Shown here: in pieces, positions 46,001 through 55,000 of the stretch
Numbering within the stretch: position 1 is the stretch's first letter
How the letters are laid out: each line of letters begins with the position of its first letter
Assembly: GCA_000002445.1 (NCBI GenBank)
Contig: CP000071.1
Coordinates: 2,048,001-2,112,000 of the forward strand
Source of the DNA: Trypanosoma brucei
Taxonomy: Eukaryota
Direction of reading: 5' to 3'
Length of the DNA: 64,000 nucleotides
Made by a program: the position numbers

Positions 46001-49000
46001 GCGACGGCCACCCGCAATCGTCTGAAGTTTTAATCGCCCTCGTGGCACCGGGTCCTTTCAATTGATCAGTTGACGGTTCCGAAGTGGACCGGAACGTTAT
46101 GGATGAAGTCGCAAGGGGAACGCTTCACAACAGCGAGGGCTGCCGCCTTATTCAACTGACGAATAATGTTAAACTGCATCGCGAAGGAAGTACACAACAG
46201 TGGGCAACAGCACCTCTCTCACCGTAACGGGTTTAGAAGTTTCCGGAGGTTTCAAACGACTGGCCACGAGACGGAAGAGTGTGGTAACAGCTTGTGCGGA
46301 AGAAAAATAAAAAGAAGATGCAAAAAAAATCTCAAATTGAGTGGGAAGAAAAAACAGTGCGGATATTTTTCTGCCCGGCAGTACCAACGCCGATTCCCTC
46401 TACATATGCGAACTAACTAAATGTATGAAATCCGGCAGGCAACTTTCGGTCGTTTCAATTTTCCCTTCCTCAGTCAGAATGCGGGTGGGAAGTAGTTACT
46501 GTTGAAGGAATGGGCTCAAGGTGGCGACAACCAACAACAGCTCCAACACAAACTTCAGGCCCCGCCACATTCGAGGGGTACAGACCAACAGCCCTACGAG
46601 TAAACCGTTTGTCGTGCCCCCGCTAAGGTTCCCCACCACTTCTAGCGGATGAACAAAAAAAAAGACGAAAGTGTCGCGCCACACCTCACTGCAATCTTCA
46701 GTGCCCCGTGGCTGTCTCTTGGGGTGCAATAAATGCTCTGCTATTTTCTGCCCATCACTTCCCACGAACGTGCATCCCCTGTCCAAGCCACTATCCTTCC
46801 ATGCTTCACTTCGGTCCCTCTGTTCCATCATATATAAATATATATGTGTGTGTGTGTGTGTGCCTTTGCCGTTTCATCGTCGTTCCATCGGCCATGCGCA
46901 TCACCTCGGTCGTGTTTGGCCAATAGATTTCCAAAAAAGAAAAAATCACTGCGGTGCGCAACTAATTTGTGTTCCTGCTCAAATGCGCCACTACACAAAC
47001 GACGTACCTCTTCAGCGACTCGTTGGGTGGCACTCTACCCATCGTTTGGTAACCGAAGATCAAACAAAATAAAAAGGTATCAGCATAGAAACAACTACTC
47101 TACCTCACACAACGTACCCGCCATACGAGCGTACGGTGGAAAGCAGGATAGGCAATCTTTTACCCTCACTCTGGTCTTTCAGAAGCATAAAACACAACCC
47201 CGGAACAAGATTAGACGTTCTTAACCGAAAGCAAACTTACACCTTCCAACATCATAACAAAGTTAAACAAGGTGAATCACACCGACCGTATAAGATAATG
47301 ATTAAATTGCAAGAAACGTCAGTGAAAGAATCTGTGTGCGCGTACTGCACCTTCATTACTAAGAACAAGGCAGATGGAGGGATTGAAATGCTTTCTTTCA
47401 ATTTTATCGCCACCGTTATTTTCATTATTTTGAAAGTGCAGATGGCGTGCGTAGTAGAATGTGTTAGGTTGTATCGTTTGAGCTAAGTCAACGTCCGTGA
47501 TAGGGACACACTCATTCAAAATAACCAGTCCTGACGTTCTGCTTTTTCTGTTACAGGATAAAGAGGGTGCACTCTCATTGCACAAAATCCAAAATCATCC
47601 ACCCTTCGGATAGCTTCCATCATCACAAAATATCCCTCAAGCATTTTCCACCCTTCCTATCAAGACTAAAATATTGCGGAAGTGAATTTAATCGCTTTCA
47701 ATTCTAGTTTGATTTAGTGAAGTGCTCCAAGCGTTCCAGTTAACAGCATCACAATATTTGTACCAAAAGCAAATGCTCCCATTATGTGTGCTTGAATATT
47801 TCCTCCCTACAATCATATATTATTGTGTCCCCCTACCCCCAGCACCGGATTGATTATTATTTCCGGTATCTTTTCCGTATTATTTTTGCTACCCCTATTT
47901 TTCCCATCCCCGGTTTTTCCATCCCTTTTTACATCCTTTTCTTTTACCATTATTGGTCAGCTTGATCCCATTGGAATAAATACGTGTGTTACAAATCATA
48001 CTCAGCCCCTCCTAACACCCCCTGTTGGAAATAATTCTTCGAGGTCGCCTTCCAACTTCTCAATGGCACTCTTCAGCCCTCTTCCCTCTACATTGTCCTC
48101 ACTTAAATCACCCATTAACGTCGCAATTTCCCGCAATTCACCCAACCAAGGTATGTCCTCAACCATCCCAGCCCTGGTGTTTATAATGTAATGCACACCC
48201 GGGCCAGGTACGTACCCCGACAGGAACTCGAGCGGCCAAAAGAGTTGCTTTTTGTGTTTTCCCAAAACGTACATAGTCCCGCTGCAACCATCGACACGGT
48301 GGTTCAGGCTGCGACGAAATTTTTCCACCAGCTTAGCAAACCCTTCTTTGTGCCCCTCCACATTTGAACATTGTGACACAAGGAAATTCCACCTCTTCTG
48401 GGCATCATTTCTTGGTCTCCACACTCTACGATTTTCACCAGAAACGCAATTTTCACAGCAAAGTTTGGTTTTCCTTCTTGACTTTCTGTCTGTTGCGCAC
48501 AGACACAGTAAATCCCTGCTCAGTGACACGGGCCCCTGATTCACTTCGGGTTGTGAAACATCTCCCTCACATACACGCTTTCTGGTTGCACTTCTTTCCC
48601 TCATTTTTTTCGGTTGATGTGGTATACCATAAAGGGCGCGATTCAGCATTTGCTTTATTATATCCCCGTTCAACACCCAGTGTCTCTTCGTCATATTCCC
48701 ATATATCGTTTCGGCAGCGGATGCTACTTGCTTTACCTTCTCCAGTTTCTCATCATCCAAACTTTCTTTGCCTGCATTTCCCTCGCTCATCGACAGTTTT
48801 GCTGCATCCCAAAACACCTTGGAGTATTCACAGCTTTCGTCATTGTTGTCAATACAGGTATTGCTTAATTTCACGTCTCCAGCCAACTCAAGACATCTTG
48901 ATCCAATCTTCGTCAATGACTTGTTGACTTCCTGGGCTTCTTCTACCCTTTGCAATGCACCTTTCGCGAAATTAATCATACCACATAGGGCTCCAAATTC

Positions 49001-52000: not shown

Positions 52001-55000
52001 AATCACCCATTAACGTCGCAATTTCCCGCAATTCACCCAACCAAGGTATGTCCTCAACCATCCCAGCCCTGGTGTTTATAATGTAATGCACACCCGGGCC
52101 AGGTACGTACCCCGACAGGAACTCGAGCGGCCAAAAGAGTTGCTTTTTGTGTTTTCCCAAAACGTACATAGTCCCGCTGCAACCATCGACACGGTGGTTC
52201 AGGCTGCGACGAAATTTTTCCACCAGCTTAGCAAACCCTTCTTTGTGCCCCTCCACATTTGAACACTGGGACACAAGGAAATTCCACCTCTTCTGGGCAT
52301 CATTTCTTGGTCTCCACACTCTACGATTTTCACCAGAAACGCAATTTTCACAGCAAAGTTTGGTTTTCCTTCTTGACTTTCTGTCTGTTGCGCACAGACA
52401 CAGTAAATCCCTGCTCAGTGACACGGGCCCCTGATTCACTTCGGGTTGTGAAACATCTTCCTCACATACACGCTTTCTGGTTGCACTTCTTTCCCTCATT
52501 TTTTTCGGCTGATGTGGTATACCATAAAGGGCGCGATTCAGCATTTGCTTTATTATATCCCCGTTCAACACCCAGTGTCTCTTCGTCATATTCCCATATA
52601 TCGTTTCGGCAGCGGATGCTACTTGCTTTACCTTCTCCAGTTTCTCATCATCCAAACTTTCTTTGCCTGCATTTCCCTCGCTCATCGACAGTTTTGCTGC
52701 ATCCCAAAACACCTTGGAGTATTCACAGCTTTCGTCATTGTTGTCAATACAGGTATTGTTTAATTTCACGTCTCCAGCCAACTCAAGACATCTTGATCCA
52801 ATCTTCGTCAATGACTTGTTGACTTCCTGGGCTTCTTCTACCCTTTGCAATGCACCTTTCGCGAAATTAATCATACCACATAGGGCTCCAAATTCATCTT
52901 CATTGACAATTTTTCCCTCCCCGGAGATACTTGTTCGGAGCACCAAGGCAAACAAAACGACGCAATATTTAATACCACACATTTTTCCTGCTTTTCACTT
53001 TGCTCAATACATTCACCTCTTGAAGATACACAGAAAAGGAACCATAAAAGTAGCACAATCTGCACGTTCTATTATTAACATTTCCTGACACCACAAATAT
53101 ATAGCATTAACATTCCAACAACATATTGGACAAGTGTAACCGGGTCTCGGAAATAGGGAACCGATGCAACAAAAAACGAAATAGAGTTATAGCTTTTACC
53201 AATTACACCCCAAGGAGTTCCCGACAAAACATTGTTAAACGCAGTCCCGGTGTGTATGTGAGAGACCCCAGCCGAAAGTAAACTCATTTTCTCATGCTTT
53301 AATGTGGAGACACCATATATTTTAACAGAAACCTTTTTTTGTTGTCGTTGTAGCCTGCGCACACTGTTTAATTAAATGGTGAGAAACGCTTATAGAATGC
53401 TATAGGTACAAATGGGATATACATACGTGAAAGTACAGATACGTGCGCACGTATGTGGTCTCCCCACACTGCTTCGCCCTGGGTTACGCATACTCGACAA
53501 CTTCCTAGCTCGTTGAGAATTACCTCTCTACGAGGTGGAAAACCTTCCTCAAACTCACACACAAGGAATTCCCTCCCTTTACAGTGGGAATATTCACTGC
53601 TTTCGTTTATCACAAACTATAATAAGTGTCAAACAAACAATTGATTAGTTTTCCTTTCCACAAAGATATGCACGCTACACGCGAGTCACTACGAAGTGGA
53701 ACATACTATCCTAGACTTTTCAACAGTCGGCGATTACTTCACACAAAATACGCTCAATGTGACAAGATAGTTATGCCAACACCAACACATACTCTCTACG
53801 GAAATAGTATCGGTTATCTCATGAGCAGTTTGTGTGTGCATGATGCTACGAATATTATGAGGGGATATATGTGCGCGCGTATTAGAAGAGGGTAAATGGA
53901 CGTACAAGCAAAAAGATGTTATCGCGTATAAGCCTTAAAAAACTATGACCTCGGAATAAAGAAAAGAGTCATGGGTTTTAGAGCCCAGCTTTCATTCAAA
54001 GTAACGTGCTGTATAAAAAAGGAATAAAAAAACAACGACCACCAAATATGGTCGGTATGGATCCACTGTTTTGGTTACTCTGCGGCTCAGTCGATTTCAT
54101 ATCCACTGCTTTTTCAGTTTTAGTCTGTGGTCCCTTAATGGTCGGCTTCTCTTGGCCAACTTTTTCGGTCACATTATCTGATGTTTCGGTCGTGGGCTTC
54201 TCTTTGGGTTTCTCTTTAGATTCCTTCTCAGTACTTGCTCGTGCTGGTGCTGATACGGTAGCAGCCTGTTTGTGCTCCTGGCTTGAAACGAGTACAATGT
54301 GTAAGGGCAGTTTGCTACAGTCGTGGCCAGGTGCACTGAGCACAGATTTCTGAAGCTCCTCTTGCTTCTTTATAATTTCCTCCAGGGTACCTCTGGTACA
54401 CGTGTAGTAAGTTGGAGTTTCCCCAGTTATGTTGAGCTGCACAGGACAAGAGTCTCCAGCGGTCTTTTTGGCATCATCTTCCGAACTCTCTTTACATCCT
54501 TTCTTCATTGCGTCTTTCACAGATGACGCCAGCCGCGGACAAAGATGCTCGGTACTGTGTCGGTCTCTGCAGGGTACACCATAAGGCACCAAAACCGTCA
54601 CTTCAACGAGGTCTTCGCCAGCAGAAAGCATTGAACAGGTCGAGAACACACACAGAAATAACAGCACTTTCCCCATCATTCCGTAACTAAAGGTCAAAAA
54701 AGAAAAGGTATCATCATAGAAACAACTACTCTACCTCACACAACGTACCCGCCATACGAACGTACGGTGGAAAGCAGGATAGGCAATCTTTTACCCTCAC
54801 TCTGGTCTTTCAGAAGCATAAAACACTTGCTTGTTACTGAGCATACAATACAACCCAAACACAATGCAATCACTTAGTCACCGACGTCCAATGGCAATAT
54901 TAACGCGCTTAGTGCCGTCAAACGAACTTGCAAACAACACTTTCATTACTTGCCCACCAAAGCAGAAAGGGCGCCGGAAGGAAATGTACATCCGTTACAC

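What the first reader, a model, noticed from the sequence alone, without database searches (positions are those of the whole stretch)
47040..54826. 3.9-kb tandem units pair a highly conserved 361-aa secreted Cys-rich gene with a ~225-aa GPI-type gene whose N-terminal domain is hypervariable
Within each unit the 361-aa gene and most non-coding sequence are almost identical between copies. The segment encoding the N-terminal approximately 130 aa of the small GPI-type protein, plus its 5' flank, is strongly diverged (only the Cys framework and a few residues are kept). The stalk, the GPI-signal part and the 3' flank are identical. Having a conserved and a variable module inside one repeat unit is what is expected for a diversifying surface antigen linked to an invariant partner. 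I cannot place the 361-aa product in any family I know (not MASP, mucin, gp63, DGF-1 or RHS). It may resemble TASV-like or T. theileri TTPSP-like families, but that is speculation.
Basis: seen in the sequence. Interest (0 to 1): 0.65.

Follow-up and report, generated by a model that had tools for sequence, protein, structure and literature searches.

The report
Tandem VSG-related plus GPI-orphan genes
This is an already annotated and published stretch of Trypanosoma brucei chromosome 8 in which a two-gene cassette (an anchorless VSG-like protein and a small GPI-type orphan protein) sits twice in tandem, and the 'hypervariable' part is an anciently diverged module recombined into otherwise homogenised repeats, not a fast-evolving antigen.

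Summary
Window 47184-50371 and 51079-54264 are 98.9% identical over 3.2 kb. The roughly 0.6-0.7 kb between them, which holds the small gene's 5' flank, signal peptide and N-terminal domain, is only about 50% identical.

The window is T. brucei TREU927 chromosome 8. The small genes are the "hypothetical" Tb927.8.7310 and Tb927.8.7330. Carnes et al. 2015 already describe this tandem repeat and note that it is missing from some strains.

In the variable block synonymous sites are saturated (dS about 1.3, dN/dS about 0.5). In the rest of the same gene dS is 0.03. This is a recombination mosaic of old lineages, not recent diversifying selection.

A paralogous small-gene/VR pair on chromosome 11 shares a 1.4-kb core with both chromosome 8 units. 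The core covers the stalk, the GPI signal, the intergenic region and the first 34 VR codons. It is 93-94% identical overall and 96-97% in the non-coding part, and it breaks at the same point.

The small protein has no homologue outside Trypanozoon and no recognisable fold.

The VR lacks a GPI signal, so a complex like ESAG6/7 is conceivable, but it is untested and partly contradicted. Interest is low to moderate.

The parts
47030..54832 (-). Whole array: two complete 3.9-kb units plus a 166-nt remnant of a third. It lies at the downstream end of a minus-strand polycistron, next to a convergent strand-switch region.
   Evidence: Self-BLAST. Junction sequences read directly.
48002..49087 (-). 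VR gene 1 (Tb927.8.7300 by position). It encodes 361 aa: a signal peptide plus a b-type VSG N-terminal domain only, with no C-terminal domain and no GPI signal.
   Evidence: Pfam VSG_B residues 9-344, E=2e-68. 99% identical to the annotated 'VSG-related' protein. Maximum Kyte-Doolittle hydropathy of the C-terminus is 0.09.
51897..52982 (-). VR gene 2 (Tb927.8.7320). It differs from VR gene 1 at 8 nt and 5 aa.
   Evidence: dS 0.013.
50103..50768 (-). Small gene 1 (Tb927.8.7310), 221 aa. Layout: signal peptide, 6-Cys head domain of about 110 aa, K/E/P/T-rich stalk of about 65 aa, hydrophobic GPI-type tail.
   Evidence: 100% identical to P0003, named Tb927.8.7310. Hydropathy and Cys map. Polypyrimidine tract plus AG directly upstream of the ATG.
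53996..54679 (-). Small gene 2 (Tb927.8.7330), 227 aa. Same architecture as small gene 1 but a different head domain (39% identical).
   Evidence: Identical to P0004. Alignments. Polypyrimidine tract plus AG upstream.
47184..50371 (-). Homogenised block of unit 1: stalk and tail coding sequence, 1.0-kb intergenic region, VR gene, VR 3' flank.
   Evidence: 98.9% identical to 51079-54264.
51079..54264 (-). Homogenised block of unit 2.
50372..51078 (-). Variable cassette of unit 1: a 310-nt 5' flank ('X'), the signal peptide and the 7310-type head domain.
   Evidence: Identity to unit 2 is 0.45-0.6. dS 1.29. X versus A is 49.7%.
54265..54826 (-). Variable cassette of unit 2: a 5' flank of about 150 nt ('A'), the signal peptide and the 7330-type head domain.
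47030..47195 (-). Remnant A': a decayed copy of flank A plus the first ~13 nt of a 7330-type CDS. This is the stump of a lost third unit.
   Evidence: 91.6% identical to 54664-54826. Read directly.
48990..50371 (-). The 'core' shared with the chromosome 11 paralogous pair: stalk and GPI-signal coding sequence, the intergenic region and the first ~98 nt of the VR CDS.
   Evidence: 93.9% identical to L003 10413-11791. The intergenic part alone is 96.7%.
52885..54327 (-). The same core in unit 2.
   Evidence: 92.6% identical to L003 10351-11791.
44799..47029 (.). Convergent strand-switch region. Plus-strand genes end at 44798 (RCC1-repeat protein) and minus-strand genes begin at the array. The cumulative GC skew turns here.
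   Evidence: ORF map. Composition profile. No tRNA and no Rfam hit.

Best explanation
The region is the published Tb927.8.7300-7330 locus of Trypanosoma brucei TREU927 chromosome 8. It lies at the end of a polycistron, next to a convergent strand-switch region.

What the genes are:
- Each 3.9-kb unit carries, in transcription order, a small Trypanozoon-specific orphan gene and then a VSG-related (VR) gene.
- The small protein has a signal peptide, a 6-Cys head domain, a disordered K/E/P/T stalk and a GPI-type tail.
- The VR protein is a b-type VSG N-terminal domain with a signal peptide but no C-terminal domain and no GPI signal.

How the conserved/variable pattern arose (inferred from divergence levels):
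- It is a recombination mosaic. The small-gene/VR pair is old and exists at two or more loci, on chromosomes 8 and 11.
- Gene conversion or unequal crossing-over keeps homogenising whatever is still alignable. That is the 1.4-kb core between chromosomes, and 3.2 kb between the two chromosome 8 units.
- Conversion tracts stop at the edge of homology, at the first codons of the stalk.
- The head-domain cassette, together with its own 5' flank and splice-acceptor region, therefore persists as an old lineage or is swapped in whole from a diverged donor.
- The unrelated 5' flank X in unit 1, contrasted with the only 8%-diverged A/A' copies, favours import of the 7310-type cassette over in-place divergence.

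Function (inferred, not shown): both products are bloodstream-stage secretory-pathway proteins of the surface or flagellar pocket. The VR is soluble or peripherally attached, and the small protein is GPI-anchored on a stalk. They are most likely co-duplicated neighbours. A physical partnership is possible but unproven.
For: Identity of the locus:
- Exact and near-exact protein matches to Tb927.8.7310, Tb927.8.7330 and the VR of Tb927.
- Pfam VSG_B over the full length of the 361-aa protein.
- Weak phmmer hit to VSG615.
- Carnes et al. [quoted passage not shown]
- VR genes typically sit at chromosome-internal strand-switch regions without 70-bp repeats. Here there is a convergent strand-switch region, no VSG 3'UTR 16-mer and no TAA-run inside the array.

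Mosaic structure:
- Head domain dS 1.29 / dN 0.65, against stalk and tail dS 0.034 / dN 0.010 in the same gene.
- VR1 versus VR2 dS 0.013.
- Step change of identity at 50371/50372.
- Flank A versus A' is 92.6% identical, but A versus X is 49.7%.
- In T. b. equiperdum the chromosome 11 pair (L003) has the same gene order. It matches both chromosome 8 units only over the core, with the same left breakpoint.
- The intergenic region is 96-97% identical between chromosomes, while the VR beyond codon 34 has dS 1.59.

Coding status of the small genes:
- The ORF is intact in four diverged copies, with six invariant Cys and dN/dS below 1.
- A polypyrimidine tract plus AG lies before each ATG.

Expression:
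- The Tb927.8.7300(+1) probe is 3.7-fold higher and Tb11.02.1566 8-fold higher in cultured bloodstream forms than in procyclic forms.
- VR proteins as a class are enriched in a bloodstream-form surface proteome.
Against: - dS above 1 is saturated, so the ratio of 0.5 cannot exclude positive selection at individual sites.
- Only four head-domain sequences exist, representing three types.
- The donor of the 7310-type cassette was not found, so 'import' and 'old tandem pair with partial homogenisation' cannot be separated.
- The chromosome 11 comparison uses another subspecies (T. b. equiperdum IVM-t1), because Tb927 chromosome 11 DNA was not retrievable.
- The T. equiperdum OVI contig L001 is a chromosome 11/chromosome 8 chimera joined inside the core. 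It could be an assembly collapse, so it cannot serve as clean evidence.
- No protein-level or localisation data for these four genes were found in the searchable literature or in the supplements held as text.
- Signal peptide and GPI signal are judged from hydropathy only.
Confidence: 0.75

Rival explanations
1. After a recent tandem duplication, immune-driven diversifying selection rapidly changed the exposed head of a GPI-anchored surface antigen, while its linked partner stayed invariant.
For: - The head domain is the membrane-distal part of a stalked GPI-type protein.
- Only the Cys framework and about 25 other positions are conserved.
- VR1 and VR2 are nearly identical.
Against: - Synonymous divergence in the head is about 40 times that of the stalk in the same ORF, and dN/dS is about 0.5.
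- The adjacent non-coding 5' flank is unalignable, which selection on a protein cannot produce.
- The same breakpoint recurs in the chr 8 / chr 11 comparison.
- Only three head types are found among 1.84 billion representative proteins.
Confidence: 0.07
2. Functional two-subunit module. The anchorless VR (a VSG N-terminal domain) is held on the membrane by the stalked GPI-anchored small protein, analogous to the GPI-minus ESAG7 / GPI-plus ESAG6 transferrin receptor. The pair is therefore inherited and duplicated as one unit. This is compatible with the recombination-mosaic explanation.
For: - The VR has a signal peptide but no hydrophobic C-terminus. The small protein has both.
- Order and adjacency (small gene, then VR about 1 kb downstream) are kept at both paralogous loci, even though both proteins have diverged by about 50%.
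- GPI+/GPI- tandem pairs are an established trypanosome design.
- VR proteins as a class are surface-associated.
Against: - The same VR (99% identical) is paired with two head domains that are only 39% identical, so there is no co-variation.
- The next closest VR, Tb927.7.180 type (P0008), is also anchorless but has no small-gene neighbour within 10 kb.
- The two proteins are not homologous to each other (hhalign probability 0.05%), unlike ESAG6 and ESAG7.
- Neighbouring genes in trypanosome polycistrons are usually functionally unrelated (general knowledge).
- There is no experimental evidence.
Confidence: 0.15
3. The duplication is an assembly artefact, or the small ORFs are non-coding spacer.
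For: - Repeats of about 99% identity are prone to mis-assembly.
- The T. equiperdum OVI contig does look chimeric at this repeat.
Against: - The two units differ by a whole non-homologous 0.6-0.7 kb cassette and by 35 scattered substitutions, so they are not a collapsed or duplicated read pile.
- The locus was examined by read mapping in Carnes et al. 2015.
- The small ORFs are intact and constrained in four diverged copies.
Confidence: 0.03

Closest known systems
T. brucei VSG-related (VR) genes (Marcello & Barry 2007 class; Pfam VSG_B, PF13206)
   Same: - The 361-aa product is a full-length b-type VSG N-terminal domain.
- It sits at a chromosome-internal strand-switch region.
- It has no 70-bp repeats and no VSG 3'UTR 16-mer.
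- It is up-regulated in bloodstream forms.
- It is annotated as VR in Tb927.
   Different: - Nothing differs for the family assignment. It is a member.
- Within the VR family it belongs to a small anchorless subgroup (Tb927.8.7300/7320, Tb11.02.1566, and more distantly Tb927.7.180). This subgroup lacks any C-terminal domain or GPI signal.
ESAG6/ESAG7 transferrin receptor gene pair
   Same: - A tandem pair of one GPI-signal-bearing and one anchorless secreted protein, at least one of them VSG-derived.
- The pair is duplicated as a unit and is subject to frequent recombination and concerted evolution.
   Different: - ESAG6 and ESAG7 are close paralogues of each other and are a-type VSG-like. Here the two genes are unrelated, and the VSG-like one is b-type.
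- No ligand or complex has been shown.
- The location is a Pol II strand-switch region, not an expression site.
Fam1 (Tb927.6.1310 array) and Fam4-7 of the African trypanosome cell-surface phylome (Jackson et al. 2013)
   Same: - T. brucei-specific secretory genes in polymorphic tandem arrays at strand-switch regions.
- Bloodstream-biased expression.
- Copy number varies between strains.
- Fam1 is also a b-type VSG N-terminal domain without the canonical C-terminal domain.
   Different: - Fam1 carries its own GPI signal. The VR here does not.
- I could not check whether the small gene is one of Fam4-7, because the gene IDs are not in the supplement held as text.
VSG cassette (segmental) gene conversion
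   Same: A variable N-terminal coding module is exchanged or retained as a block. Its downstream boundary lies at the start of a conserved C-terminal / 3' region that supplies the homology.
   Different: - There are no 70-bp repeats and no telomeric expression site.
- There is no large donor archive: only three module types are known.
- Nothing suggests programmed switching.

Membership tests
VSG-related (VR) / VSG_B family | b-type VSG N-terminal domain detectable by profile | tested here: met
   PF13206 E=2.1e-68, 231.6 bits against a cutoff of 25. Protein residues 9-344 cover model positions 1-352 of 352.
VSG-related (VR) / VSG_B family | Chromosome-internal location at a strand-switch region, not a subtelomeric array or expression site | tested here: met
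   - Housekeeping genes (VPS11, kinase, ERGIC, p24, RCC1) lie on the plus strand up to 44798.
- The array lies on the minus strand from 47030.
- The GC skew turns at about 46 kb.
VSG-related (VR) / VSG_B family | Lacks the 70-bp repeats upstream and the conserved VSG 3'UTR 16-mer | tested here: met
   - The 16-mer has no match with 2 or fewer mismatches. The only hit in the array has 3 mismatches and lies on the wrong strand.
- There are no TAA-runs between 47030 and 54832.
- The motifs were taken from memory.
Canonical VSG (antigenically varying coat protein) | C-terminal domain(s) plus a GPI-addition signal on the same polypeptide | tested here: not met
   The protein ends 17 residues after the VSG_B domain with '...EELFPTGGVRRG'. 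The C-terminal hydropathy maximum is 0.09.
ESAG6/7-type heterodimeric receptor | Two paralogous a-type VSG-like subunits, one GPI+ and one GPI- | tested here: not met
   The GPI+/GPI- asymmetry is present. However, the subunits are unrelated (hhalign probability 0.05%) and the VSG-like one is b-type.
ESAG6/7-type heterodimeric receptor | Physical heterodimer that binds a host ligand | not testable with these tools
   No complex prediction or experimental data were available.
VSG C-terminal domain (as a possible origin of the small protein, the 'split VSG' idea) | Sequence or fold similarity to VSG C-terminal domains | tested here: not met
   - No Pfam hit at E<=1.
- No PDB sequence hit.
- The gene order (small gene upstream of the VR) is also wrong for a simple split.
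GPI-anchored surface protein (small gene) | N-terminal signal peptide and C-terminal hydrophobic tail preceded by a small-residue omega region | tested here: inconclusive
   The hydropathy pattern and the 'N(N/S)GS + 20 aa' tail fit. No dedicated predictor (SignalP, PredGPI) or experimental data were available.

The most novel reading that the evidence does not exclude
The anchorless b-type VSG domain (VR) and the stalked GPI-anchored orphan form a previously unrecognised two-component bloodstream-stage surface or flagellar-pocket receptor. Its membrane-distal head module can be exchanged as a cassette between loci through the conserved 1.4-kb core. That would make it a heterotypic analogue of the ESAG6/7 transferrin receptor, encoded outside expression sites and present only in some T. 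brucei strains.
Probability: 0.12. Interest if true: 0.65.

Novelty: already known. Interest (0 to 1): 0.27.

Why it matters
For genome annotation it matters little. The genes are annotated, the VR family has been known since the genome paper era, and the tandem repeat and its strain polymorphism are published.

Two things appear not to be described in the literature I could search:
1. The unit is a three-part mosaic (variable head cassette / conserved core / VR body). The same breakpoint is used within chromosome 8 and between chromosomes 8 and 11. A 1-kb non-coding spacer is kept at 96-97% identity while the coding sequence on both sides has dS above 1. This is a clean small-scale example of homology-limited concerted evolution in a Pol II-transcribed surface-gene locus.
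2. An uncharacterised Trypanozoon-only GPI-type orphan is consistently paired with an anchorless VSG-like protein.

If the two proteins interact, this would add a new receptor architecture to the bloodstream-form surface. If they do not, the locus is an ordinary, dispensable, strain-variable surface-gene duplication.

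Tried and rejected
- **Remote homology of the small protein.** Pfam found nothing at E<=1. The word-indexed search of 5.8 billion proteins found only four Trypanozoon proteins. The exhaustive HMM search of 1.84 billion representatives with the head-domain alignment found only the family itself plus a spurious Cys-free bacterial repeat protein, P0007. 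The PDB profile search gave only a low-complexity stalk match at E=0.86.
- **'Split VSG' idea** (VR as the N-terminal domain, small gene as the C-terminal domain plus anchor). Rejected because there is no C-terminal-domain similarity, the gene order is wrong, and the two proteins are unrelated.
- **A hidden RNA gene or tRNA as the reason for the ultra-conserved spacer.** No Rfam hit at E<=1 in 45-58 kb and no tRNA.
- **Retrieving Tb927 chromosome 11 or other Tb927 copies by exact-protein look-up.** This failed. The chromosome 11 locus was obtained from T. b. equiperdum instead.
- **Using the T. equiperdum OVI contig L001 as a 'single-unit' ortholog of the chromosome 8 locus.** Rejected after finding that it is chromosome 11-like on one side and chromosome 8 on the other.
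- **Literature.** Neither the main texts of the papers searched nor the supplements of the cell-surface phylome and surface proteome that are held as text mention Tb927.8.7310 or Tb927.8.7330. The bacterial promoter/terminator scan of the strand-switch region is uninformative for a trypanosome.

Full report
**What is there**

The 64-kb window is Trypanosoma brucei brucei TREU927 chromosome 8. The ORFs in the flagged region give exact or 99% matches to proteins that NCBI names from that genome, on a 2,481,190-bp contig.

Plus-strand housekeeping genes run up to 44798. They include VPS11-like, a protein kinase, ERGIC/ERV, p24/GOLD and an RCC1-repeat protein. From 47030 to the end of the window, everything is on the minus strand. 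The cumulative GC skew turns at about 46 kb. The flagged array is therefore the last part of a polycistron that runs into a convergent strand-switch region.

**Checking the observation**

Self-BLAST gives 47184-50371 = 51079-54264 at 98.9% over 3188 nt, with a period of 3895. It also gives a decayed partial copy, 47030-47195 = 54664-54826, at 91.6%.

In transcription order (minus strand) the array reads:
- flank A
- small gene 2 (54679-53996)
- 1.0-kb spacer
- VR gene 2 (52982-51897)
- 0.8-kb 3' flank
- flank X
- small gene 1 (50768-50103)
- spacer
- VR gene 1 (49087-48002)
- 3' flank
- remnant A', which still shows the degenerate start of a third small gene

The two 361-aa genes differ at 8 nt and 5 aa.

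The two small proteins differ at only 2 residues from 'ATVSAP' to the end. Their mature heads are 39% identical, with six invariant Cys. Identity falls from about 0.99 to about 0.5 within a few bases at 50371/50372 = 54264/54265.

**What the genes are**

The 361-aa protein is a complete b-type VSG N-terminal domain (Pfam VSG_B, E=2e-68, model positions 1-352 of 352). It is annotated 'variant surface glycoprotein (VSG)-related'. It has a signal peptide, but no C-terminal domain and no hydrophobic tail.

VR genes are a known T. brucei-specific class. They are located at chromosome-internal strand-switch regions without 70-bp repeats. In line with this, I found no VSG 3'UTR 16-mer and no TAA-run in the array.

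Carnes et al. [quoted passage not shown] They cite RIT-seq for a bloodstream-form growth effect of the VR genes.

Jensen et al. 2009 list Tb927.8.7300(+1) as 3.7-fold up and Tb11.02.1566 as 8-fold up in cultured bloodstream forms versus procyclic forms. Gadelha et al. 2015 found VR proteins as a class enriched in a surface proteome. These particular IDs are not in the supplements held as text.

The small genes encode:
- a signal peptide
- a head of about 110 aa with three probable disulfides
- a K/E/P/T-rich stalk of about 65 aa
- a GPI-type tail ('N(N/S)GS' followed by 20 mostly hydrophobic residues)

Each small gene has a polypyrimidine tract and an AG immediately before its ATG. They are true orphans:
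- Pfam found nothing.
- There are four Trypanozoon proteins in 5.8 billion clusters.
- An exhaustive profile search of 1.84 billion representatives found nothing beyond the family, apart from one spurious bacterial repeat protein.
- There is no PDB relative.

AlphaFold models are of low confidence (pLDDT 41 and 57). They match no solved fold. The small protein is unrelated to the VR and shows no VSG C-terminal-domain signal.

**Why one part is variable**

Nei-Gojobori estimates for 7310 versus 7330 are as follows:

| Segment | dS | dN |
|---|---|---|
| Head domain | 1.29 (pS 0.62, saturated) | 0.65 |
| Stalk and tail | 0.034 | 0.010 |

VR1 versus VR2 gives dS 0.013.

A 40-fold jump in synonymous divergence inside one ORF, together with a totally unalignable non-coding 5' flank (A versus X, 49.7%), cannot be produced by selection on the protein. 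It means the segments have different ages or origins.

A and its remnant A' are 92.6% identical. Point divergence since the array formed is therefore about 8% where no homogenisation acts and about 1% where it does. X is simply a different sequence. This favours replacement of the A + 7330-type cassette in unit 1 by an imported X + 7310-type cassette. An old heterogeneous pair with partial homogenisation cannot be excluded.

**The second locus**

The only relatives are Tb11.02.1565 (small) and Tb11.02.1566 (VR), which carry adjacent accession numbers on chromosome 11. I retrieved that locus from T. b. equiperdum IVM-t1 as L003. It shows the small gene, then 1.0 kb downstream the 356-aa VR on the same strand, then an LRR gene, then a convergent gene.

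L003 matches both chromosome 8 units only over a 1.4-kb core:
- L003 10413-11791 = window 50371-48990 at 93.9%
- L003 10351-11791 = window 54327-52885 at 92.6%

The core starts at the very same breakpoint, at the beginning of the stalk. It ends about 98 nt into the VR CDS.

| Segment, chr 8 versus chr 11 | Divergence |
|---|---|
| Non-coding spacer | 96-97% identical |
| Stalk and tail coding sequence | 85% identical |
| VR codons 1-34 | dS 0.20 |
| VR codons 35 to end | dS 1.59, dN 0.51, 46% aa identity |

The unit is thus a three-part mosaic of head cassette, core and VR body. The core is kept similar across chromosomes, most simply by ectopic gene conversion whose tracts stop where homology ends. 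No RNA family or tRNA explains the conserved spacer.

The T. equiperdum OVI contig L001 is chromosome 11-like for 1-4982 (97.6% to L003). It is chromosome 8 for 5055-14634 (99.1% to the window). The junction lies inside the core. This is either a real recombinant or an assembly collapse at this repeat.

**Function**

What is shown:
- a secreted-type VSG-like domain without an anchor
- a stalked GPI-type orphan
- bloodstream-biased mRNA for the VR
- strain-variable presence of the locus

What is inferred: both are surface or flagellar-pocket proteins of bloodstream forms.

The attractive idea is that the small protein tethers the anchorless VR, as in an ESAG6/7-like GPI+/GPI- design. In its favour, the pairing is conserved at both loci. 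Against it:
- One VR is paired with two heads that are only 39% identical, so there is no co-variation.
- The related anchorless VR Tb927.7.180 has no small-gene neighbour within 10 kb.
- There is no experimental evidence at all.

I put this idea at about 0.12-0.15.

**Verdict**

The 361-aa gene belongs to a well-known family, and the locus is already published. The 'hypervariable domain' is an old recombined cassette rather than a rapidly diversifying antigen. The residual novelty is the common-breakpoint mosaic with a conserved inter-chromosomal core, and the uncharacterised orphan partner.

Interest is about 0.27.

Noticed in passing
window 58761-64000 (genes 58984-61230 and 61703-63949, minus strand): A second tandem array lies immediately upstream in the same polycistron. 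It holds two 748-aa trans-sialidase-like genes (Pfam BNR_3 + TS_C). The period is 2719 nt and identity is 98.0% over 2.5 kb, with 49 nt and 26 aa differences between the CDSs. The window ends inside the array, so there may be more copies.
   Followed up: partly
window 34839-38039 (+), especially about 36000-38000: A 1066-aa ORF carries a long, near-perfect (AEEAARKK)n repeat and a C-terminal DUF7759. It causes the strong GC-skew (0.29) and AT-skew (0.54) spike. It is probably the 'kinetoplast-associated' Tb927.8.7260 that Carnes et al. report as internally deleted in T. evansi.
   Followed up: partly
L001 (T. equiperdum OVI CZPT02000251.1) 1-4982 versus 5055-14634: The contig is a chimera. Its left part is 97.6% identical to the chromosome 11 locus (L003 6034-11023). 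Its right part is 99.1% identical to chromosome 8 (window 49459-39883). The junction and a deletion of about 300 nt lie inside the conserved core. It is either a genuine inter-chromosomal recombinant or an assembly collapse.
   Followed up: partly
window 49088-50102 and 52983-53995; L003 10676-11693: The 1.0-kb non-coding spacer between the small gene and the VR is 96-97% identical between chromosomes 8 and 11 (and between subspecies). That makes it more conserved than the stalk coding sequence beside it (85%). No Rfam hit explains this. Recent conversion or a constrained 3'UTR / 5' region are the options.
   Followed up: partly
L002 10001-11314 (T. b. equiperdum chr 7; Tb927.7.180 type, P0008): This is the next closest VR, at 437 aa. 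It has an acidic E/D/K/H-rich insertion of about 80 aa in the VSG_B domain and lacks a hydrophobic C-terminus. It stands alone, with no small-gene homologue within 10 kb. It is conserved in T. b. gambiense, where it is annotated as 'T. brucei spp.-specific protein'.
   Followed up: partly
window 46816-46862; L003 16508-16552: A (CA)n(TA)n microsatellite in the convergent strand-switch region downstream of the array also matches (89%) downstream of the chromosome 11 pair. This is probably just low-complexity similarity.
   Followed up: no
window 2001-4000: A low-GC (0.30) intergenic stretch with GAAAT and TTG short repeats and a TAA run at 3682-3702. Not examined further.
   Followed up: no
window 54833-58760: About 4 kb lies between the VR/small-gene array and the trans-sialidase array. 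It holds only a 182-aa minus-strand ORF (58172-58720) with no Pfam hit and an (AT)13 run at 57537-57563. Its coding status was not assessed.
   Followed up: no
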